Source: a virus. Taken from it: a stretch of DNA of 64,000 nt. The stretch lies in UHGV virus genome UHGV-1351982, one strand, 5' to 3'. How positions within the stretch are numbered: the stretch's first letter is position 1; every line of letters begins with the position of its first letter. Positions 20,907-55,117 of the stretch are shown one piece after another. Made by a program: the position numbers and the translations under genes. Below the pieces are notes generated by a model. It saw nothing but the letters and a program-made list of their open reading frames with translations, did not search any database and was not told the DNA's origin.

Positions 20907-21674
20907 TTAGGTTCCTTGATTAACCTTGATTTTATATCTAGAATGAATCAGGTCTCTTGCAGCTTTTGCGATTGCTTCCCCAATAAGTTTTTGAGGGTTT
21001 CGAGCGCCAGGGTAAGGTCGTAGAGAAAGTCTTCGATATGTAGAAACTGCGGGGTTGAACACAGAATAAGGACGAACCATATAATTATACGTCACATTCA
21101 GCTCTGGAGCACCTTTACTAGTTTCTGCATCACGTAGCATAACGTCTTTAATCTTTAAGGAGTTAGCAAAGCGACCAGTTCTGAACTTCAATGGTGCTCC
21201 TGCTTTTTTCATATCCTTGATTAAGTATTCCTTAGCTACTATCTCAAGAATAGCACGCATGTTACTATTCGATACGAAACGACCGGAAGCACCTGTTACT
21301 GCACCAGAATAGCCATCTTCAGTATCTCTAGGATCTCCAAAGTTTACCTGAACTCTACCGGTAGAACGTTTTTTACCAACAGCAGAACGTTTACCTGCGG
21401 TTGCTTGAATTAGATTCTCTAGAGCACCTAAATCACCAGAAAGATCTAAGTTAGAAGAGACGGCCTTCAATATAGATGCTGTCCTAACATTTAATAAGTC
21501 TTGAGATACTGGTTTTGAGAATTTGAAAGATACCTGTGCAACTGTACCATCTCTTGTAGGATCTTTCAAACCTGTCTCAACTGTATACACAACAGTATTC
21601 TTATTATTCTCAGATCGTCCTGCAGTATCTAGCTGCTCTTTAATAATTTGTCTAGCTAGATCAGAAAGAGCCAT
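20907..21674 (-). CDS. putative neck/tail completion protein
   Basis: 255 aa in head-tail joining region. Confidence 0.4.
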   Translation of the reverse strand: MALSDLARQIIKEQLDTAGRSENNKNTVVYTVETGLKDPTRDGTVAQVSFKFSKPVSQDLLNVRTASILKAVSSNLDLSGDLGALENLIQATAGKRSAVGKKRSTGRVQVNFGDPRDTEDGYSGAVTGASGRFVSNSNMRAILEIVAKEYLIKDMKKAGAPLKFRTGRFANSLKIKDVMLRDAETSKGAPELNVTYNYMVRPYSVFNPAVSTYRRLSLRPYPGARNPQKLIGEAIAKAARDLIHSRYKIKVNQGT

Positions 21675-22186
21675 TACACTCTCCTATAGACTTCGATGAT
21701 TGTACGAATATGCTCTGGAATACCAGACTTAGTATTGTTAAACGTAACTGTCTCACCACCAATAGTCTTGGCTTGACGATAATCTTGCTTATGCCAGTGA
21801 TCTACTAACAGACATGCTGCCAGTTTAAGATCTTCAGGCATTGGATTGAAACCACCTTGAGTATACTCTACATCCATGTATCCTTCAGGAGGATTAAACT
21901 TAAGGAGAATAACACCATCAGGATACAGTTTAAACTGTTCCGGGTCTATTTCATTCTCGTTAATAGTCATCTTTGTAATAGATGTGGCTGAGGGAGAACT
22001 CAGAAAATATTTTCTGCGAGTAGGTTTTGTGTTGATTAGCTGATCTATCGCATCCGCATCATCCATACCTAAAAGGCTAGTAATCAGCGTATTGGCAGCC
22101 TTAATCATCATGTCTACTCCAGATTCGATTTCAGGTCGTTTTAGGCTACCGTATAGTCTATAATCTTCAGCTGTGATGATTTGCAT
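21674..22186 (-). CDS. putative head completion/connector protein
   Basis: 170 aa directly downstream of major capsid gene. Confidence 0.4.
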   Translation of the reverse strand: MQIITAEDYRLYGSLKRPEIESGVDMMIKAANTLITSLLGMDDADAIDQLINTKPTRRKYFLSSPSATSITKMTINENEIDPEQFKLYPDGVILLKFNPPEGYMDVEYTQGGFNPMPEDLKLAACLLVDHWHKQDYRQAKTIGGETVTFNNTKSGIPEHIRTIIEVYRRV

Positions 22187-22245: not shown

Positions 22246-23619
22246 TTAAGCAGCGTAAGCACCAGATACAACGCCGTTTTCGAAGTAACGTTGCAGGTTA
22301 ACACGCTGAGTAACGTAGTATGCGTCACGCTGTTTTCCAGCTTGGCGCTCACGTTCAACAGTAACAGCACGCTGACGCGGCATTACGAAGTTATCTTTGT
22401 AAACAATAACTGCGAATTCAGCGGAAGCAGCTTTAGCTGGGAAGTACTCAGAAACTACAACCGGTAGACCGTAAATACGACCAACCTGACCCTGCAGTTT
22501 AACAGCATCATTACCAACCTGGGCAACATCCTGCCATTCTTCATCTTCCAGCAGATCGTAGTAAGCATCCATAGATACGATCAGTACCAGTTTACTCAGT
22601 TTCAAACCATGACGGCCCAGTTTACGACGCAGCTTGGAGATAGTCTTAGCAGTTACCAGAACAGAACCGTCAGCTTTAGCTTCGGTAACAACCTTAGCAC
22701 CATCATCAGCAGCCAGTTTCAGCAGACCCTTAGGCTGACCAGTACCATTACCAGACATGAAAGCTTCTTCGATAGAAACAGCGTGTGCTTCGATCAGACG
22801 CTTACGCAGCAGAGGCAGCAGGGAGAAGATTGCATCTTCTTCAGTTTCATCAGTGATGAAGGATTTAGCAGCCAGCTTGTAAGTTTTGAAGCTGATTTCA
22901 GTCAGTTGACCTTTAACTTCGTCACCAACAGTTTCGTCAGTACCGAATTTGGAAGCGTCTACCCAAGTAGCACGACCAGCTTCTGGTTCAACGAGCATAG
23001 TAAGAATTTTGCTGGACATTGGCAGTTCATCGAACAGTGCACCAACTACCAGTTCCTTCTGCAGGTCACGGATAATACGGGTAGAGAAGATAGTTTCGTA
23101 TGCTTCGCTAGACATGGAAACGGAAGAAGAACCGTTAACAGCTTTAACGTGAGCCTTACCATGTTCAGTTTCGAATACGTCCTTCTCCATCATATAAGAC
23201 AGAAGAACCAGTTTCTCAACTTCATCCTCGAAAGCATCCTGAGTGCCATAAAGAGCTTTAGCTACGCTATCACCAACGAAGGAACGACCTTCACGAGCTG
23301 CCAACAGAGACTTGATTTCGTCCTGAAGACCAACGATGGTTTCCTGTTGCTTTTCTACAGTCTGTGCAAACAATTCTGCGCTCTTCTTAGACTTCTCGTC
23401 CAGGTTCTTAACCAGATCCAGAGCTTCTTCCAGACGCTTACGGTCTTCACCAACAGCTTTAGATACTAGGTCGTTCATACGAGCCAGTTCTTTTTCTTCC
23501 TGCTCTTCACGCAGACGCTTAGCTTCCGCAGCTTTCTGAGCAGCAGTCAGACCTTCCAGAGATTTAGCCAGATCACCCAGACCAAGTTCTTCCTTCAGCT
23601 TATTAATATCAATAGTCAT
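22246..23619 (-). CDS. pb8: major capsid protein precursor (T5 pb8-like)
   Basis: 457 aa; N-terminal coiled-coil delta domain (KLKEELGLGDLAKSLEGL..) followed by capsid body; downstream of protease. Confidence 0.85.
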   Translation of the reverse strand: MTIDINKLKEELGLGDLAKSLEGLTAAQKAAEAKRLREEQEEKELARMNDLVSKAVGEDRKRLEEALDLVKNLDEKSKKSAELFAQTVEKQQETIVGLQDEIKSLLAAREGRSFVGDSVAKALYGTQDAFEDEVEKLVLLSYMMEKDVFETEHGKAHVKAVNGSSSVSMSSEAYETIFSTRIIRDLQKELVVGALFDELPMSSKILTMLVEPEAGRATWVDASKFGTDETVGDEVKGQLTEISFKTYKLAAKSFITDETEEDAIFSLLPLLRKRLIEAHAVSIEEAFMSGNGTGQPKGLLKLAADDGAKVVTEAKADGSVLVTAKTISKLRRKLGRHGLKLSKLVLIVSMDAYYDLLEDEEWQDVAQVGNDAVKLQGQVGRIYGLPVVVSEYFPAKAASAEFAVIVYKDNFVMPRQRAVTVERERQAGKQRDAYYVTQRVNLQRYFENGVVSGAYAA

Positions 23620-23636: not shown

Positions 23637-24269
23637 TTATTCTTTAACGTAGCCTAAAGCTATCGCAAGTTTTTCTAGTTCAGAAAGATTACGTTCTTGA
23701 GCTGGGACAGCCTTAGAACTTGTTGCAGTAAAAGATTTGCGCCATTCAGTGTAATCGTGGCCATTCATACTCTTAGCGAGGTTGAACGTTGAGTCCTGAT
23801 TACAAGGTACAGAAACTACCGAAACTTCGTATAGTTCTAAATCTTTAATAATAAATATGTCAGTAGCTTCATCCCATTCTGCGTCTAGGCAGCGGAATCC
23901 GATACTGAAGGTTTTCAGTACACCGTTTTTAATTAGTGAGAAGATAGCTGGATCAGAACTTTCATAAATCTCGCATTCAATTTCGAGACCCATTTCAGTA
24001 GGGTTAAGATCAATACACTTGCCGATTGGACGACGATGGTCGTGGCCGAAAAGAATAATCGGGTTTTTCATGTAGTTAGCAAGTGCATTAGACGTTTTCC
24101 ATGCCGAAGCAGGAATTACGTCACCAGCGCGATCTTTACTAATTGTATTAGCGAATCCACGGATTTTTACAACACCCTCTTTGGATTCGCTATCAATAGA
24201 CTTAATGTAAGCGTCTAAATGAACCGGTGCTGATTTTAACTTGTTATAGTCAATAGCAGCATTTGTCAT
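23637..24269 (-). CDS. pb11: prohead protease (T5 pb11-like)
   Basis: 210 aa with FGHDH motif of HK97-type prohead proteases; between decoration protein and capsid genes. Confidence 0.75.
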   Translation of the reverse strand: MTNAAIDYNKLKSAPVHLDAYIKSIDSESKEGVVKIRGFANTISKDRAGDVIPASAWKTSNALANYMKNPIILFGHDHRRPIGKCIDLNPTEMGLEIECEIYESSDPAIFSLIKNGVLKTFSIGFRCLDAEWDEATDIFIIKDLELYEVSVVSVPCNQDSTFNLAKSMNGHDYTEWRKSFTATSSKAVPAQERNLSELEKLAIALGYVKE

Positions 24270-31221: not shown

Positions 31222-31441
31222 CTTTGTAGCTATCTTCATTATCGGGGTGCTTGCGGGAATCTTCGGAACACTCGGGGCTATTAACAAGCATCGTGAATAC
31301 GTTGCGGGAGTATCGCGGGAGCTTTCGGAAAGGGAGCGGAAGTTTGCGGAGAAACGTGCGGAGTTTGAGCGAGAGTGGTCGGATGGATCTCGGGCGTCGC
31401 AGAGGAGGTTTCGGGCTGATTCCGTGAGTTCTCCTAAGTAG
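31214..31441 (+). CDS. small membrane protein
   Basis: 75 aa with N-terminal TM helix FSFVAIFIIGVLAGIFGTLGAI. Confidence 0.4.
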   Translation: MFSFVAIFIIGVLAGIFGTLGAINKHREYVAGVSRELSERERKFAEKRAEFEREWSDGSRASQRRFRADSVSSPK

Positions 31442-31599
31442 CGCTAATTTGACTTTTGCCAAATCTCATAAGATTACACATGAAGGTGTGCCCAGAGGTT
31501 CCCTAGATGAGAATGAGTCTCATTACCGCCCCCTTACTTAGCAAGCTAATAGTCACACCATGTTATCATTACACAGTGTGACTATTTTATTTTTAATTG

Positions 31600-36378: not shown

Positions 36379-36760
36379 TATCGTCGATTCCTTATAATGT
36401 ATAAGTTTACCGCCGATAGGCTTTAAGATGTTCCCTAGTTTTTAAAGAGCATGGCGGTAAACTTCCCCGCCGTGTAATCTTGCGTTTCGTTTCCGTCCCG
36501 CCGTCCTACGAGATAAATAATAGGGGATTCCCGAAAATGGCGCAACCTTATTTTTGTAAAGAAACGTAAAGAAAACCACTACCCGCACCACGGCAAGCGG
36601 CGCACTAAGTTTAATGAAACAGGCGCGCGAATAACACTAAAACAACCACTTTAGCAAGTAATTTTTTCATTTATATCTGCTCTAGGGTACTTGACAAAAT
36701 CTAAAATCCTCGTGGTGAGGTTTTCTCGGTGTACCCCTTATGATTGCCTATCTTTTCCTT

Positions 36761-41489: not shown

Positions 41490-42025
41490 AGCAATTTCCA
41501 GAAATGTGTTTTCAAAAAATGTTGTCTAGAAATAACCGCCCTCCCCATAACCGCCCTGTATTAACCGCCTATTGCTGGAGTTTCTAGGAACATGAAAACC
41601 GCCTGAGTTAATGGGAGTTTTCCTAGAAACTTAGGAGTCTAGAAGAAAGTGTTGTGCCATCCTAGCAGATGAGCGGCAACAGGTGTATCATCTTGAACGT
41701 TAATTTATCTATTTAACAGTATTAGTTTTTATATAAGTATAAGATCCCCAAGGGTTCTCATATAGAGCTTTGCCCCCGCCAGAAGGTCTCGTGATGTTTC
41801 TAGTAATCTTTATTAAATTACTTGTTGACTTGTCCTGTCGCTCCGTAACCTACGCTACAAGTCAGTAATTTAAGATTCCTGAACCACCACACCTTCTGTG
41901 TGGCAACTCTAAATGGTTAATTCTATTAACTCATAGAGTTATGATAACATACATTTAGCTATCTGTCAACGAGAGTTTGTATCTGAGTCTCGGTACAGGT
42001 ATTGTGCACCGAGACATGCAGGATC

Positions 42026-42913
42026 TTACAGTAACTCTTGGTATGCTTTTTGGTACGCCTCAGTGTTAGTAGGTGTATCTTTTGCAATAGTTATTAATTC
42101 ATCTGTGATCTGAATATTCGTATTATAACGTGAGTGGAACTCGTCAGGAATTTCTAGATACCTATTGATGAATGCTGCAGCAAGCGGTGAAGCTATACCC
42201 ATTTCTAGAACCCATCCAACTTGTTTCTCAAACTTCAAATAAGGAGATTCTGTTTGAATAGTAGAAGTTTTGGTTTCCTTGATTTCTTTTATTGGTAGGA
42301 TTGGATTTTCATAACGTGCTTCTTCAGGGATAGCAGATCTACGTTCTTTATAAATATAAGTCTCTAGATCCGATGCTTTAGACCCTGAATATACTGCAAA
42401 GACACTTGCTTTACCTTGTGATGCTCTAATTGGTAAATAGCAATTTGGATAACTTCTCAATGCATCGTGGAAAGGGCTTCCAGAATATTGATAACGCTCT
42501 CCATATAAATCATCAATGTTCATTCGTTCATCTTCGAAGATATGGAATGCACTAAATGAAGGTAGTGTGAAATATTCTGTTTCTAGCGCGCGAATTAAGA
42601 ATCGATGAGCATATGCACTAATCTTAATAACTGTGTAGGGTTTTTCTCCTTCTTTGAGAGCGTTACCCTTAGATGTAACTTGATAACGTTTTCCGAAGAA
42701 CTCTACTAAACGCTTCTCGTTTAAAGAGAGTGTAGAGTATAAACGTCCGTTCAGTCCTAGCAAGGTATCAAACATAAATGCTAGCTTATCTTTTTCTTCT
42801 TGGGTTAGTTCAGGAAATGGTAGGATCTTAGCATTTGGAATGTTATTTGTTTCCTTTGCCTTTCCTTTGCCAGCATTTTGTCTCAGTTTGTCTTTAAAAT
42901 TATAAGTACCCAT
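42026..42913 (-). CDS. hypothetical early protein (295 aa)
   Basis: ORF with coding-like composition; last gene of minus-strand early block. Confidence 0.5.
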   Translation of the reverse strand: MGTYNFKDKLRQNAGKGKAKETNNIPNAKILPFPELTQEEKDKLAFMFDTLLGLNGRLYSTLSLNEKRLVEFFGKRYQVTSKGNALKEGEKPYTVIKISAYAHRFLIRALETEYFTLPSFSAFHIFEDERMNIDDLYGERYQYSGSPFHDALRSYPNCYLPIRASQGKASVFAVYSGSKASDLETYIYKERRSAIPEEARYENPILPIKEIKETKTSTIQTESPYLKFEKQVGWVLEMGIASPLAAAFINRYLEIPDEFHSRYNTNIQITDELITIAKDTPTNTEAYQKAYQELL

Positions 42914-42982
42914 TGTATTTCCTTTTTAAGGTCAGATGACCTGCTTTTTATTTTAAAGCCTCCGTAGAGGCTTTTGTGTTAG

Positions 42983-43228
42983 CTACTTTTTGCGTGGTAT
43001 TACATCCACACATACTAGACCTAGTTGTTTAACAAGATCTGCTAAATAACAATGATGCAAGATTGCTTCTTTTGGTATTTTACTTACTAACTCAATAATA
43101 GTGCGTAGATCTTGTTGGTTAGCAAAGAAAACATGTCTGATTTCTTCTTTTAAATAAATACCAAACGTATCTGTATTAATAAGTTTTATACTAAAGTCTT
43201 CATGTTCATAAGAGAGCAGTGTATCCAT
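42983..43228 (-). CDS. hypothetical protein (81 aa)
   Basis: ORF, start overlaps upstream gene stop. Confidence 0.4.
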   Translation of the reverse strand: MDTLLSYEHEDFSIKLINTDTFGIYLKEEIRHVFFANQQDLRTIIELVSKIPKEAILHHCYLADLVKQLGLVCVDVIPRKK

Positions 43229-51797: not shown

Positions 51798-52211
51798 TCA
51801 GACTAATTCTACGTGACCACCGTCGTAAGTACCACGATCGATCTCATCATGATAATCACCAGAACTATTCCAGTCGGCACCAAAACGAAGTTTGACACCA
51901 AGTTCCTTACCCGCTTGTTCAAAAGCCTTCTTAACAGCCCAAAATGCTTCCAGATCTTTCCAATCAATCTTACCATTAATATATGGTGCAAAATCGATAG
52001 CGTCTCCAGTTACATGCTTACTTTTGCTAGGGTCTTTCAAGAATGAAGTACCATTAGCAATATTTTGGGCACTTTGTGCTACTGTACGAATACCCTGTAC
52101 GATTGTGAAATCATACGGGGATAATTCTAAAGCCCTACGAGCTACCTTCTGTAGCTCGGGCTTAACAGTTGCTAATTGTTTTTCGCTATTTTTACCAAAT
52201 TTAAAACTCAT
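51798..52211 (-). CDS. lys: endolysin, L-alanyl-D-glutamate peptidase (M15-type, T5 endolysin-like)
   Basis: 137 aa, same size as T5 endolysin; Zn-peptidase motifs HVTGDAIDF and DGGHVE. Confidence 0.75.
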   Translation of the reverse strand: MSFKFGKNSEKQLATVKPELQKVARRALELSPYDFTIVQGIRTVAQSAQNIANGTSFLKDPSKSKHVTGDAIDFAPYINGKIDWKDLEAFWAVKKAFEQAGKELGVKLRFGADWNSSGDYHDEIDRGTYDGGHVELV

Positions 52212-52864
52212 ATAGATCTACCTAATGATCTTTGCTGTGGTGAGCAAAGCTTTGTTAAGTACTCATTAAATTGTTCCGAGTCAGCTGTATCTACGGGTTT
52301 ATCCTTCCAGGCAATACCTATGTATCCAGCATAGATATTATTTAGGTTGAAATACGGACAAGTGTAGACGTAATTAAAAGTAACGTTCTTAAACGCGGGT
52401 ATATTTGACCCCATATATTTATTTACTTTTACACTTAAATCCGAAGCGTAGTTAAAGCCTTCCAGGTGACGTCTATAAAGTTCAGACGTCTTGTTTACTG
52501 CTTTATCGGCCAAGTCAGCCCTATCCAATTGCGCATTGCTTTCCCATGCAATAATGTTCGAATAATCGTTTATAGCATCGGGTTTATACTTGACTACAAA
52601 AACAGCATCCGCACCCGTCTGAGAGAAAAGAACCATACTCTTTTCTCGTGCTACATTAGGAAAGTTATCTATCCTTTGGGTTTGAACATCCTGTAAAACC
52701 GCAGACGTGGAGAAAGTCTTTAAAAATGACATCACCTCGCTAGTGTTACTTACAAACAAGAAAATAATGACAGCAACTAAGATAGTTAGCAGACGTTTTA
52801 GTAGCGAAGCTGGATCTTTCGCTTCTTGGAGCAGTACCGTTAATAGTTGTAGAAACTTTTCCAC
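52208..52864 (-). CDS. putative holin
   Basis: 218 aa with N-proximal TM helix LTILVAVIIFLFV; immediately upstream of and overlapping the endolysin. Confidence 0.5.
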   Translation of the reverse strand: MEKFLQLLTVLLQEAKDPASLLKRLLTILVAVIIFLFVSNTSEVMSFLKTFSTSAVLQDVQTQRIDNFPNVAREKSMVLFSQTGADAVFVVKYKPDAINDYSNIIAWESNAQLDRADLADKAVNKTSELYRRHLEGFNYASDLSVKVNKYMGSNIPAFKNVTFNYVYTCPYFNLNNIYAGYIGIAWKDKPVDTADSEQFNEYLTKLCSPQQRSLGRSI

Positions 52865-52980: not shown

Positions 52981-53010
52981 AAAGAAAAGCCAGAGTCGTT
53001 AAACTCTGGC
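52981..53010 (-). terminator. rho-independent terminator (GCCAGAGT-TTAACG-ACTCTGGC then U-run)
   Basis: 8-bp stem after the stop of the ClpP-like gene. Confidence 0.55.
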
Positions 53011-53020
53011 TTAAAACTAC

Positions 53021-53503
53021 TTACACTTCTCCATGTTCTTCTGGATGCGGAGCTTGAGCTCTACTATATTGCTCTTTGCGATAATTCGCCAAAATTTCAA
53101 TACGCTTATTGATTTCTTTGCTGTTGAGGTAGATATTCTTATTCTCTTTTACCATATCCTCGATCTCGTCAATAGAGAAGAACGGGAAGTAAACATCGAG
53201 CATCATATCTTCTACAAACTGGTTGTAAGATTCATAGGCTTTCTTGATTTCTTGACCTTTCTCACAGAATCCGCCAGAGAACGTATGTCCCATAAGCGTA
53301 GCATGTGGATGTACAACCCAACCGTGGCAAGACAGGAAGATTGTGCAGTAAGCAGAAGCACTAGGACCGAGCAGGTGTCCAATAACCGTTCCACGACAGT
53401 TAGCGATTAAGTTAGATAGCTGTGCAGCAGTATCAACATAACCACCAGGCCCATTAATCATCAGATTAATTTCATCATCTTCACCAGCCTGCATCAGTAT
53501 CAT
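53021..53503 (-). CDS. ClpP-like serine protease (N-terminally interrupted, see findings)
   Basis: Aligns by eye to ClpP core: INLMINGPGG (YINSPGG), GPSASAY (Ser site), MGHTF (His site). Confidence 0.55.
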   Translation of the reverse strand: MILMQAGEDDEINLMINGPGGYVDTAAQLSNLIANCRGTVIGHLLGPSASAYCTIFLSCHGWVVHPHATLMGHTFSGGFCEKGQEIKKAYESYNQFVEDMMLDVYFPFFSIDEIEDMVKENKNIYLNSKEINKRIEILANYRKEQYSRAQAPHPEEHGEV

Positions 53504-53631
53504 CGATAGATCACGATACTCATCTGGTGAACCTAATTCTTCGTCAAAGAAAAGGTATATTCGTTAGATTGGCGAACAGTGTGAAACAGGTTAGTCTTTT
53601 CTTCTTTCTTATTAGTCATAGTGATCCTTAA

Positions 53632-54384
53632 TTATCCAACTAGTGGTTCTAGCTCTAAGTCACAGAAGTGGTACACATCGGTACGAAGTGCATCAAGTCC
53701 GTTGAAGGTATTCTCAAATTTATGAGAAATGTATTTTTCAGGAATACCGCTTTCAGACGGGTGATCTGTCTCGATGCGATACTTATTAGTAATACCAGAT
53801 TCAACCTTAATAAGCATGGAATCCATATCTAGAGTATTGGTTTCCATGATTAGCTCTCCCTCATTGGGGAAACGCACATCGGTAACGATTGCGACGTCTG
53901 GGTCGTCTTTATCGATGGATTGCTCCAGAATTATGAGCCAAATGCGTTCATGCACCAGCTGCCTTCCTAACTCAGTACCTACAAGCTGTAGCATTTTTCT
54001 TGGGGAGATAAACACGCTATATAGCGCATCATCAGCTTGCCCAATCAATTGCTGAGGATCAAGGTATTTTCCTTCAAAAATCGGCCAAACGTACGAGAAG
54101 TCCTCAAACTTATCGATACCATACTTAAACCATACGTCTCTAGCTCGCTCCAATTGAGATTGTGTGACCATAAACCATTGGTCAATCTCTTTTCCCCTGC
54201 GCTCTCCCAGAAACTCTGGAGTTACCCCGAGGATTACGGATGCAAGTTCGTAAACGGGTTTAGCAAAACTGTAACGACGGGATAAACACGTTGGGAACGT
54301 GTCATTACACCAGTCAATCATTAATTCTGCAACGGTATCTTTTCCCGCACCAGCCTCACCATGTAAACCGACTAATACTGACAT
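53632..54384 (-). CDS. dnk: deoxynucleoside monophosphate kinase (T5 Dnk-like)
   Basis: 250 aa; P-loop GLHGEAGAGKDT at N-terminus; size matches T5 dNMP kinase. Confidence 0.6.
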   Translation of the reverse strand: MSVLVGLHGEAGAGKDTVAELMIDWCNDTFPTCLSRRYSFAKPVYELASVILGVTPEFLGERRGKEIDQWFMVTQSQLERARDVWFKYGIDKFEDFSYVWPIFEGKYLDPQQLIGQADDALYSVFISPRKMLQLVGTELGRQLVHERIWLIILEQSIDKDDPDVAIVTDVRFPNEGELIMETNTLDMDSMLIKVESGITNKYRIETDHPSESGIPEKYISHKFENTFNGLDALRTDVYHFCDLELEPLVG

Positions 54385-54737
54385 TAATCTTTCCTATTTG
54401 TAATGGGTGGATAGTAAACTAAGCAACGTTTTTCTTGTAAATCTTGACGATAGAAGCAAACCATACCGGTCAGTCGTGAAATGTAAGAGTAAACTGCTTC
54501 CTCGCATTTTGCTTTTGCATTCCAATCTTTGTAAGGTACAACAACTACTACGCCATCTTCACCATTTGTAGCTAATTTCTTTTCGAATTTGAAATCAAAG
54601 CTACACGGCTGAAGTCCTTTAGGCCAGTCAACATGAGCTTGCTTTAACTCATGAGATGGCTCTGGTTTTATTTCTTCTGCACAGCCTGTGATTGTGATTG
54701 CGGCTGCGAGCAGTACTCCAAGTTTCCAGTTAAACAT
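54384..54737 (-). CDS. lipoprotein (117 aa)
   Basis: Signal peptide plus lipobox ITGC. Confidence 0.45.
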   Translation of the reverse strand: MFNWKLGVLLAAAITITGCAEEIKPEPSHELKQAHVDWPKGLQPCSFDFKFEKKLATNGEDGVVVVVPYKDWNAKAKCEEAVYSYISRLTGMVCFYRQDLQEKRCLVYYPPITNRKD

Positions 54738-55117
54738 GCTAATCTTTCCTCGAACTCTTTATTCTGCTTTTTAGCAATTAATGTTACCAATCCAGGCTTT
54801 GCAGCGATAACATCCTGACGACTAAGAGCTTTATCTAACTGCTTAATCTTTTTGTCTAGATCTGCTTGTGAAATATTATTCATTGTGAAGTACTGATTCA
54901 TTAGAGTCTCACGAAGTTCACTCTCAGTTTTCACTTTATTAAGAGAAGTCTCTAGAGTGGAGATCTTTTTAGTCGCAACTGCAAGATCTCCCGCTAAAGT
55001 TTCAACCTTATTTACTAAATGATAAGCACCGAATCCGATACCTATCGCAAGACCAGCTCCCAGGATATACCACTTACCTTGCCATATTCCTGAAAGAAGT
55101 TTTTGTATCAAATCCAT
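54668..55117 (-). CDS. membrane-anchored coiled-coil protein (149 aa)
   Basis: N-terminal TM helix; overlaps the downstream ORF. Confidence 0.4.
   Translation of the reverse strand: MDLIQKLLSGIWQGKWYILGAGLAIGIGFGAYHLVNKVETLAGDLAVATKKISTLETSLNKVKTESELRETLMNQYFTMNNISQADLDKKIKQLDKALSRQDVIAAKPGLVTLIAKKQNKEFEERLACLTGNLEYCSQPQSQSQAVQKK

What the first reader, a model, noticed from the sequence alone, without database searches (positions are those of the whole stretch)
53021..53620. ClpP-like protease gene with an apparent frameshift at its 5' end
The ORF 53021-53503 aligns to the ClpP core, but the conserved first strand (RIYLFF, compare ClpP RVIFL) lies upstream of the annotated Met in the same frame and is cut off by a TAA at 53564-53566. 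A 28-codon ORF starting at ATG 53617-53619 (MTNKKEEKTNLFHTVRQSNEYTFSLTKN) overlaps in another frame. Restoring one base near 53563-53566 would give one continuous protein (..HTVRQS-RIYLFFDEELG..). This is either an assembly indel, a real pseudogene, or a -1 programmed frameshift.
Basis: seen in the sequence. Interest (0 to 1): 0.45.

Follow-up and report, generated by a model that had tools for sequence, protein, structure and literature searches.

The report
Frameshifted Clp-like protease gene, T5-like phage
A conserved phage gene for a ClpP-shaped protease is broken here by the loss of one T from a run of five, an ordinary private frameshift (probably a real recent mutation, possibly a sequencing error) and not a programmed recoding signal.

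Summary
The window comes from a T5-like Salmonella/E. coli phage (Epseptimavirus). The gene between the dNMP kinase and holin genes is the family's "Clp-like protease". It is one 600-nt, 199-codon ORF in Sepoy, Stitch and IrmaTschudi, and matches as a single full-length piece in T5 and every other sampled relative. Here it is 599 nt.

The true junction is ...RQSNEYTFFFDEELG....

- **Rarity:** no GenBank phage record tested (0 of 144), IMG/VR contig, JGI metagenome contig or GTDB genome carries the T4 allele.
- **Second sighting:** a separately assembled run (Logan SRR5677825) carries it.
- **Assembly quality:** no other real gene in the 64 kb is frame-broken, and four control homopolymer differences are shared natural polymorphisms.

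I therefore favour a real, recent loss-of-function allele (about 0.7) over an assembly error (about 0.25). Programmed frameshifting is rejected: there is no slippery heptamer, no conservation and no notable downstream structure.

The intact protein has a ClpP fold with Ser89 and His112, and Asn162 where ClpP has its catalytic Asp. Its function is unknown. Two other frame-breaking alleles exist elsewhere (T6 at the same run; a GT duplication). Interest is low.

The parts
53625..53629 (-). Shine-Dalgarno sequence (AAGGA) of the Clp-like protease gene, 5 nt before the start codon
   Evidence: Read directly. The same site is annotated as a ribosome_binding_site in Sepoy and Stitch.
53617..53619 (-). 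True start codon (ATG) of the Clp-like protease gene
   Evidence: The annotated CDS in Sepoy, IrmaTschudi and Stitch starts at the aligned ATG.
53551..53619 (-). Codons 1-23 of the gene (MTNKKEEKTNLFHTVRQSNEYTF) in the original frame. In the window this frame runs on to a premature TAG at 53533-53535, giving the 28-codon ORF.
   Evidence: tblastn with the Sepoy protein gives HSP 1-23 at 53619-53551 in frame -2.
53550..53553 (-). The lesion: a T4 run where all tested database relatives have T5 (A4 against A5 on the + strand). This one-base deletion causes the frameshift.
   Evidence: Alignment A1. blastn indel list. 0 of 144 phage records share T4. This is the only run of 5 or more in the 600-nt gene.
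53024..53548 (-). Codons 25-199 of the gene in the shifted frame, holding the ClpP-fold core. Stop codon TAA at 53021-53023.
   Evidence: tblastn HSP 23-199 at 53554-53024 in frame -1, 98.9% identity to Sepoy. Pfam CLP_protease match.
53564..53566 (-). TAA that closes the long ORF's frame upstream. It is an out-of-frame triplet inside codons 18-19 of the real gene and has no biological role.
53501..53503 (-). Internal ATG (Met40 of the intact protein) that ORF finders take as the start of the 160-aa ORF. No Shine-Dalgarno sequence precedes it.
   Evidence: In the alignment of homologues this Met is internal.
53354..53356 (-). Codon of Ser89 (GPSAS*A), the counterpart of the ClpP nucleophile
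   Evidence: It aligns with GQAAS*AG of Coxiella ClpP. Invariant in homologues.
53285..53287 (-). Codon of His112 (LMGH*T), the counterpart of the ClpP catalytic His
   Evidence: It aligns with MIH*Q of ClpP. Invariant among intact homologues.
53135..53137 (-). Codon of Asn162, at the position of the ClpP catalytic Asp (E. coli Asp171). Asn in the closer (T5/Eps7-like) homologues, Asp in more distant family members.
   Evidence: HMMER alignment nkNiyl / NRDYFL. Family alignment. The position of Asp171 was checked on the E. coli ClpP sequence as I recalled it.
52987..53012 (-). Intrinsic terminator hairpin plus T-tract directly after the gene
   Evidence: A terminator is annotated at the same place in Stitch.

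Best explanation
This is the T5-family 'Clp-like protease' gene. It is an early-region gene that normally encodes a 199-residue protein of about 23 kDa with a ClpP fold. The protein keeps the ClpP Ser and His (Ser89, His112) and has Asn162 where ClpP has its catalytic Asp. In this genome one T has been lost from the gene's only 5-nt homopolymer (T5 to T4, window 53550-53553, codons 23-24). Ribosomes starting at the normal ATG 53619 therefore stop after 28 codons. The remaining 176 codons lie in the -1 frame with no start signal of their own. Any product restarted at Met40 would lack the core beta-strand 20-25 and part of helix 32-44, so the allele is most likely null. I judge the deletion to be a real, very recent mutation carried by this phage lineage, not an assembly error and not a programmed recoding signal. 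Shown here: the gene's identity, the exact lesion, that the allele is absent from every database relative tested and was found again only in one separately assembled run, the fold, and the conserved residues. Inferred: that the lesion exists in the phage DNA, that the allele is null, and that the gene is dispensable under the conditions this phage grew in. The protein's substrate and role are unknown.
For: Gene identity: relatives at 98-99.6% DNA identity annotate one 600-nt CDS from the same ATG to the same stop. PHROG 1827 matches at E 1.3e-88 over the full length. Synteny is i-/o-spanin, dNMP kinase, clp, terminator, holin, endolysin.
Lesion: alignment A1 shows T4 against T5. tblastn splits the Sepoy protein into residues 1-23 and 23-199 in adjacent frames.
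The N-terminus is real coding sequence: distant homologues align from residues 18-20. The AF2 model of a 92%-identical orthologue has strand 20-25 at pLDDT about 93. Foldseek top hits are all ClpP (probability 1.00, TM 0.6-0.7).
Purifying selection: pN/pS is 0.00-0.13 among intact orthologues. The repaired window gene differs from Sepoy at a single residue, K187R, so there has been no decay.
Favouring a real allele over an error:
(i) A separately assembled run, Logan SRR5677825 contig 1436, is 100% identical to window 53291-54458, T4 included. Another contig of that run differs from the window by 3 SNPs in 2638 nt, so it is a different dataset or population.
(ii) Of 172 Sepoy ORFs of 70 aa or more, this is the only real gene that is frame-broken in the window. 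The one other flagged pair is an unannotated antisense ORF. The window holds 215 runs of 5 nt or more.
(iii) Four other isolated homopolymer differences from Sepoy (17249, 32337, 37389, 39148) are shared with other GenBank phages (115 records at >=99% identity; 36; ungapped best matches). The assembly therefore does not systematically undercall runs.
(iv) The gene is independently broken elsewhere: T6 at the same run in Logan ERR11042459_276, and a GT duplication before the Ser89 codon in Salmonella phage KKP 3953.
Expression of the full-length orthologue: BF23 ORF45 'Clp protease' (22.9 kDa predicted) was detected by mass spectrometry in purified virions, with its function stated as unknown (PMC10644984).
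Against: No reads were available, so presence of T4 in the DNA is inferred. A one-base change in homopolymer length is the classic sequencing error. The T4 allele is absent from all 144 GenBank phage records that match the site, and from IMG/VR, JGI metagenome contigs and GTDB genomes. Both length variants of this run (T4 and T6) were found only in automatic Logan assemblies, never in curated genomes. That is also what platform-specific homopolymer error would produce. The two T4 sightings could come from the same laboratory, stock and platform. Strong purifying selection on the gene makes a surviving null allele somewhat unexpected in nature.
Confidence: 0.7

Rival explanations
1. Sequencing or assembly artefact: the phage really has T5 and an intact 199-codon gene, and the assembly dropped one T in the homopolymer.
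For: A one-base homopolymer deletion is the commonest consensus error. The allele is private: 0 of 144 GenBank records, 0 in IMG/VR, 0 in JGI metagenome contigs and 0 in GTDB genomes. The window seems to come from an unpolished automatic Logan assembly. The only other length variant of this run (T6) is also from a Logan contig. Apart from the indel the gene is pristine.
Against: The same T4 appears in a second, separately assembled run whose phage differs from the window by SNPs elsewhere. No other real gene among 172 compared ORFs is frame-broken, despite 215 runs of 5 nt or more. Four control homopolymer differences are genuine shared polymorphisms. A k-mer graph assembler keeps the majority path, so T4 should be the majority in the reads (my inference about the assembler, not tested here).
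Confidence: 0.25
2. Programmed -1 ribosomal frameshift (or transcriptional slippage): the two-frame layout is functional and the full-length protease is made by recoding at the overlap.
For: The geometry is right. A -1 shift anywhere between 53564 and 53536 would join the two frames, and the 0-frame ORF has a strong Shine-Dalgarno sequence and ATG.
Against: None of the nine in-frame heptamers in the overlap (AAC GAA TAT ACC TTT TCT TTG ACG AAG AAT TAG) has the X XXY YYZ form. A slip of tRNA-Phe from UUU to CUU mispairs (read). A T4 run is far too short for RNA polymerase slippage (established knowledge). The downstream RNA fold is unremarkable (z = -1.77, 11 of 200 shuffles fold as well). Above all, the arrangement is not conserved: every annotated relative examined has a single ORF, and all 60 sampled tblastn matches are one piece.
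Confidence: 0.02
3. The short form is genuine: a 160-residue protein starting at Met 53503 is the natural product, and the upstream similarity is accidental.
For: ORF callers produce it. The exact 160-aa sequence is in the protein collection from one Logan contig.
Against: No Shine-Dalgarno sequence precedes ATG 53503. All orthologues start 39 codons upstream. Residues 18-39 are conserved in distant phages, with D26, R36 and L38 invariant or nearly so. In the model these residues form a confident core strand and helix. The other short database forms examined are contig-end truncations or frameshifts.
Confidence: 0.02

Closest known systems
T5-family 'putative Clp protease' (phage T5 AY692264 gene at 21160-21753; BF23 ORF45; Sepoy_047; Stitch gp41; IrmaTschudi bas28_0156; PHROG 1827)
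   Same: Orthologue. After repair it is 88-99.5% identical in protein sequence, with the same length, the same start and stop, and the same neighbours (dNMP kinase upstream; terminator, holin and endolysin downstream).
   Different: The window copy lacks one T in the T5 run and is split into a 28-codon ORF and a start-less 176-codon remainder. The family's function is unknown. The BF23 paper found the protein in purified virions (PMC10644984).
Bacterial ClpP (peptidase family S14; E. coli ClpP, PDB 1yg6; T. thermophilus 6hwn)
   Same: Same alpha/beta fold (Foldseek probability 1.00, TM 0.6-0.7 over about 160 columns). Pfam PF00574 matches above threshold. The nucleophile Ser and the catalytic His are at the aligned positions.
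   Different: Only 16-23% identical. It scores far below the NCBIfam ClpP equivalog cut-offs (15 bits against 308). Asn replaces the catalytic Asp in this clade. The first 19 or so residues are low-confidence in the model; their resemblance to ClpP's N-terminal axial-loop sequence was not compared. No evidence exists for a 14-mer or for ClpX/ClpA docking, so the 'ATP-dependent' label in database annotations is unsupported.
ClpP-related phage head-maturation proteases (NCBIfam NF045542; PHROGs 1684 and 94)
   Same: Detectable sequence similarity (E 2e-20 to PHROG 1684; 40.6 bits to NF045542).
   Different: Below the family cut-off (40.6 against 120 bits). The gene sits in the early region, not next to the capsid gene. 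The phage has its own S78-type prohead protease at 23637-24269, beside the major capsid gene.
Ordinary homopolymer-slippage frameshift alleles (pseudogenes or sequencing indels)
   Same: A one-base length change in the gene's longest homopolymer, private to one lineage, with no compensating change.
   Different: Nothing distinguishes it, except that the same run also occurs as T6 in another lineage.

Membership tests
T5-like phage Clp-like protease (PHROG 1827) | Full-length sequence match to the family profile | tested here: met
   The repaired protein matches at E 1.3e-88, residues 1-198 on profile positions 5-201 of 202.
T5-like phage Clp-like protease (PHROG 1827) | Conserved position between the dNMP kinase gene and the holin-endolysin pair | tested here: met
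   for the window. for Sepoy, IrmaTschudi and Stitch.
T5-like phage Clp-like protease (PHROG 1827) | Single uninterrupted ORF of about 199 codons | tested here: not met
   599 nt against 600 nt, T4 against T5 at 53550-53553. The window copy is a frameshifted allele of a family member.
ClpP / peptidase S14 (Pfam PF00574) | Profile match above the Pfam gathering score | tested here: met
   31 bits against 20.2, E 2.8e-7.
ClpP / peptidase S14 (Pfam PF00574) | ClpP alpha/beta fold | tested here: met
   AF2 model of orthologue P0001 (92% identical) has pLDDT 82. The 50 best PDB hits listed are all ClpP, probability 1.00.
ClpP / peptidase S14 (Pfam PF00574) | Catalytic Ser and His at the canonical positions | tested here: met
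   Ser89 and His112 align to the ClpP Ser and His and are invariant in intact homologues.
ClpP / peptidase S14 (Pfam PF00574) | Catalytic Asp (E. coli Asp171) completing the triad | tested here: not met
   Asn162 in the window and the closer (T5/Eps7-like) homologues; Asp in the more distant family members.
ClpP / peptidase S14 (Pfam PF00574) | Orthology to bacterial ClpP (NCBIfam equivalog TIGR00493 or PRK00277) | tested here: not met
   15.1 bits against a cut-off of 308.6, and 19.6 against 249.
ClpP / peptidase S14 (Pfam PF00574) | Double-heptamer barrel that docks a Clp ATPase (the 'ATP-dependent' property) | not testable with these tools
   No oligomer modelling or biochemistry was possible. 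The annotation 'ATP-dependent' is inherited by name only.
ClpP-related head maturation protease (NF045542) | Score above the family cut-off and a location in the head-morphogenesis module | tested here: not met
   40.6 bits against 120. The gene lies in the early/lysis region. A separate S78 prohead protease lies at 23637-24269 next to the capsid gene.
Programmed -1 ribosomal frameshift site | Slippery heptamer X XXY YYZ in the 0 frame within the overlap | tested here: not met
   None of the nine in-frame heptamers between 53564 and 53533 fits (read).
Programmed -1 ribosomal frameshift site | Two-frame arrangement conserved in relatives | tested here: not met
   Relatives have one ORF. 0 of 144 records share the T4 allele, and 60 of 60 sampled tblastn matches are single-piece.
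Programmed -1 ribosomal frameshift site | Stable stimulatory RNA structure just downstream | tested here: inconclusive
   MFE -26.1 kcal/mol, z = -1.77, 11 of 200 shuffles fold as well. Nothing stands out.

The most novel reading that the evidence does not exclude
The single T5 run near the 5' end of the Clp-like protease gene may act as a recurrent on/off mutational switch in T5-like phages. It was seen as T4 (this lineage, two runs) and as T6 (another lineage), and a GT duplication breaks the gene elsewhere in KKP 3953. That would mean loss of this otherwise strongly conserved protease, which in BF23 was detected in purified virions, is repeatedly tolerated or even selected under some conditions such as laboratory propagation or particular hosts or defences. 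The T6 allele also happens to create the RF2-type 'CTT TGA C' +1 shifty stop, which could allow leaky full-length expression.
Probability: 0.1. Interest if true: 0.4.

Novelty: already known. Interest (0 to 1): 0.12.

Why it matters
It matters mainly for annotation. The 160-aa ORF an ORF caller finds here is not a short ClpP variant. The locus should be annotated as a frameshifted copy (pseudogene, or 'low-quality sequence') of the 199-aa Clp-like protease. It should not be counted as a recoding site.

If reads confirm the T4 allele, it would be natural evidence that this conserved T5-family protease of unknown function is dispensable for propagation. That is a small but useful pointer for anyone trying to find out what the protein does.

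Tried and rejected
A repair at 53563-53566 giving HTVRQS-RIYLFF was rejected by the alignment with Sepoy, Stitch and IrmaTschudi.
- **Programmed -1 frameshift or transcriptional slippage.** Rejected: no slippery heptamer, the run is too short, the downstream fold is unremarkable, and the arrangement is not conserved.
- **Error-prone assembly.** I tested whether the assembly is generally poor at homopolymers. I listed all indels against Sepoy and ran tblastn with 172 Sepoy ORFs. Only this gene was hit, plus an unannotated antisense ORF. A one-base difference inside the 57-aa Sepoy_009 'gene' (window 36473) was set aside because that ORF looks non-coding.
- **Control homopolymer sites.** All four turned out to be shared polymorphisms.
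- **Other short database forms.** P0015 (153 aa) is a contig-end truncation or chimeric contig, so it is not informative. P0010 (163 aa) sits on a 1,016-bp contig and was taken, without checking, to be cut by the contig end; P0004 and P0006 (191 aa) start at the normal N-terminus.
- **Literature.** A search for SRR5677825 found nothing. A search for 'Clp-like protease' with phage found nothing relevant.
- **Head-maturation protease reading.** Rejected: the score is below the cut-off and a separate S78 protease is present.

Full report
**What the window is.** DNA searches place the region in the T5-like phages of Salmonella and E. coli (Demerecviridae, Markadamsvirinae, genus Epseptimavirus). 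An 851-nt query around the finding matches 442 phage records, the best at 99.6% identity. No record is identical over larger stretches; the best is about 94-95% over 24 kb.

The gene order on the minus strand is as follows:

| Element | Window coordinates |
|---|---|
| i-spanin | 54668-55117 |
| o-spanin | 54384-54737 |
| dNMP kinase | 53632-54384 |
| the gene in question | 53021-53619 |
| intrinsic terminator | 53012-52987 |
| promoter-like site | 52917-52889 |
| T-type holin | 52208-52864 |
| M15 endolysin | 51798-52211 |

Sepoy, IrmaTschudi and Stitch have the same order, which is also where the two spanin labels come from.

**Checking the observation.**
- The 160-codon ORF 53021-53503 exists and matches Pfam CLP_protease.
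- Its frame is open upstream to a TAA at 53564-53566.
- A 28-codon ORF starts at ATG 53617-53619, behind an AAGGA ribosome-binding site, and overlaps in another frame.

**Where the break really is.** In Sepoy, IrmaTschudi and Stitch the annotated CDS is one 600-nt ORF of 199 codons. It runs from the ATG that aligns with 53619 to the stop that aligns with 53021. The window is exactly one base shorter. The alignment places the difference in a T-run of the coding strand: ACC-TTTT-CTTTGA here, ACC-TTTTT-CTTTGA in the relatives. That is window 53550-53553.

The intact protein reads ...HTVRQSNEYTFFFDEELGSPDEY.... 'RIYL' is an out-of-frame reading of the NEYT codons, and its resemblance to the ClpP strand 'RVIFL' is a coincidence.

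tblastn with the Sepoy protein reproduces the split: residues 1-23 in frame -2, residues 23-199 in frame -1.

**The N-terminus is real coding sequence.** The family extends well beyond close relatives. tblastn finds 1305 phage records, including T5 itself (88.9%), Pectobacterium, Klebsiella, Vibrio, Proteus and Providencia T5-like phages (37-57%), KVP40, Pbunavirus-type Pseudomonas phages and Rheinheimera phages. The distant alignments begin at residues 18-20, upstream of the break.

In alignments of database homologues, D26, R36 and L38 are invariant or nearly so. An AlphaFold2 model of a 92%-identical orthologue has mean pLDDT 82 and pTM 0.77. It shows residues 20-25 (EYTFFF) as a beta-strand in a block with pLDDT about 93, followed by helix 32-44. 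A protein starting at Met40 (ATG 53503) would lack both. No Shine-Dalgarno sequence precedes that ATG.

**What the protein is.**
- The model's best PDB matches are all ClpP (Foldseek probability 1.00, TM 0.6-0.7, about 160 aligned columns).
- The HMMER alignment to Coxiella ClpP puts Ser89 (GPSASA) on the nucleophile and His112 (LMGHT) on the catalytic His. Both are invariant in intact homologues.
- At the position of the ClpP Asp (E. coli Asp171, position checked) the window and its closer (T5/Eps7-like) homologues have Asn162. More distant members keep Asp.
- It is not an orthologue of bacterial ClpP: 15 bits against the 308-bit equivalog cut-off.
- It is not the head-maturation protease. 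It scores below the NF045542 cut-off, and the phage has its own S78 prohead protease at 23637-24269, next to the capsid gene.
- Among intact orthologues pN/pS is 0.00-0.13, so the gene is under purifying selection.
- The only functional information I found is on BF23. [quoted passage not shown]

**Programmed frameshift?** A -1 shift between 53564 and 53536 would be needed. The 0-frame sequence there is AAC GAA TAT ACC TTT TCT TTG ACG AAG AAT TAG.
- None of its in-frame heptamers has the X XXY YYZ form, and a slip of tRNA-Phe from UUU to CUU mispairs.
- Four T are too few for RNA polymerase slippage.
- The downstream RNA fold is unremarkable (z = -1.77).
- The arrangement is not conserved. None of the 144 records matching a 76-nt probe across the site has T4; all of the 30 listed matches, including the 22 that tie for best, carry one extra base.
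- All 60 evenly sampled tblastn matches are single-piece.
- Exact-pattern scans find T5 five times and T4 never in IMG/VR, and T4 never in JGI metagenome contigs or GTDB genomes.

I reject recoding.

**Real mutation or artefact?** This cannot be settled without reads, but four results bear on it.

1. *Is the assembly error-prone?* The window was compared with Sepoy over nearly its whole length. Of 172 Sepoy ORFs of 70 aa or more, this is the only real gene that is frame-broken. The one other hit is an unannotated antisense ORF. The window has 215 homopolymer runs of 5 nt or more.
2. *Controls.* Four other isolated one-base homopolymer differences from Sepoy (17249, 32337, 37389, 39148) lie outside coding sequence. 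At each of them other GenBank phages carry the window's run length. At the first two sites 115 and 36 records fall in the >=99% identity band, and at the other two the best matches are ungapped. They are natural polymorphisms, not undercalls.
3. *Second sighting.* The exact 160-aa product and the exact dNMP kinase occur in the protein collection only from Logan assemblies, the longest contig being 101,664 bp. A separate Logan run, SRR5677825, has a 1,168-nt contig that is 100% identical to window 53291-54458, T4 included. Another contig of that run differs from the window by 3 SNPs in 2,638 nt. It is therefore a different dataset or population that shares the allele.
4. *No decay.* Apart from the indel, the gene differs from Sepoy's protein at a single residue, K187R, so the event is very recent.

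Against a real allele, both length variants of this run were found only in automatic Logan assemblies, never in curated genomes. The two T4 sightings may also share a stock and a platform. My estimate is about 0.7 real, 0.25 artefact.

**Other broken copies.** Salmonella phage KKP 3953 (OR067837.1) has a GT duplication just before the Ser89 codon. This yields a 136-aa product whose tail is the alternative frame.

Logan contig ERR11042459_276 belongs to a distinct lineage with several SNPs. It has T6 at the very same run. No GenBank record (0 of 199) or IMG/VR contig has T6.

The T5 run is the only run of 5 nt or more in the gene, so it is the expected slippage hot spot. In the T6 allele the original frame ends ...EYTFFL-TGA with 'CTT TGA C', the motif of the RF2 (prfB) +1 frameshift site (my knowledge). 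I saw no Shine-Dalgarno-like stimulator upstream. It is recorded as a curiosity only.

**Verdict.** This is an ordinary private one-base deletion in a known, conserved T5-family gene. It is most likely a real, recent null allele, possibly an assembly error, and not programmed recoding. Novelty: already known. Interest is low.

Noticed in passing
L016:1212-1217 (Logan ERR11042459_276), aligned with window 53550-53553: A different T5-like phage lineage has T6 at the same homopolymer, which also breaks the gene. In that allele the original frame ends ...EYTFFL-TGA with 'CTT TGA C', the RF2/prfB-type +1 shifty stop. No GenBank record (0 of 199) or IMG/VR contig has T6.
   Followed up: partly
L006:434-844 (Salmonella phage KKP 3953, OR067837.1), aligned with window about 53360: An independent frameshift of the same gene: a GT dinucleotide duplication (cctaGTGTgctt) just before the catalytic Ser codon, giving a 136-aa annotated 'hypothetical protein'.
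   Followed up: yes
window 53135-53137 (Asn162 codon): The window and its closer (T5/Eps7-like) homologues have Asn where ClpP has its catalytic Asp171. More distant members (Pectobacterium DU_PP_V and several unnamed metagenomic/Logan homologues) keep Asp. Whether the Asn form is an active Ser-His peptidase is unknown.
   Followed up: partly
window 31413-31491: The window runs straight from sequence matching the right end of the Sepoy record (late genes, llp region) into Sepoy position 1 (dmp, A1, A2 pre-early genes). The source assembly therefore reads through the genome ends, with the terminal repeat collapsed or in circular form.
   Followed up: no
window 41698-43226 (ORF 42026-42913, - strand, 295 aa): This segment has no counterpart in Sepoy. 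The only place returned by an exact look-up of its 295-aa ORF was a contig of Logan run SRR5677825, with no Pfam hit on record. It sits at the edge of the terminal-repeat region.
   Followed up: no
window 54384-55117 and 51798-52864: The lysis genes are split. The i-/o-spanin genes lie upstream of the dNMP kinase and Clp-like genes. Holin and endolysin lie downstream, behind a terminator (53012-52987) and a promoter-like site (52917-52889). The Clp-like gene is thus the last gene of the upstream transcription unit.
   Followed up: partly
window 36442-36591 against L004:4931-5104 (Sepoy_009): A one-base difference breaks the 57-aa ORF annotated as Sepoy_009. The ORF's arginine-rich, low-complexity translation suggests it is not a real gene.
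   Followed up: partly
window 23637-24269: A separate S78-type prohead protease (Pfam Peptidase_S78, E 9.6e-19) lies next to the major capsid gene (22246-23619). The Clp-like protein is therefore not the capsid maturation protease, despite PHROG hits labelled 'head maturation protease'.
   Followed up: yes
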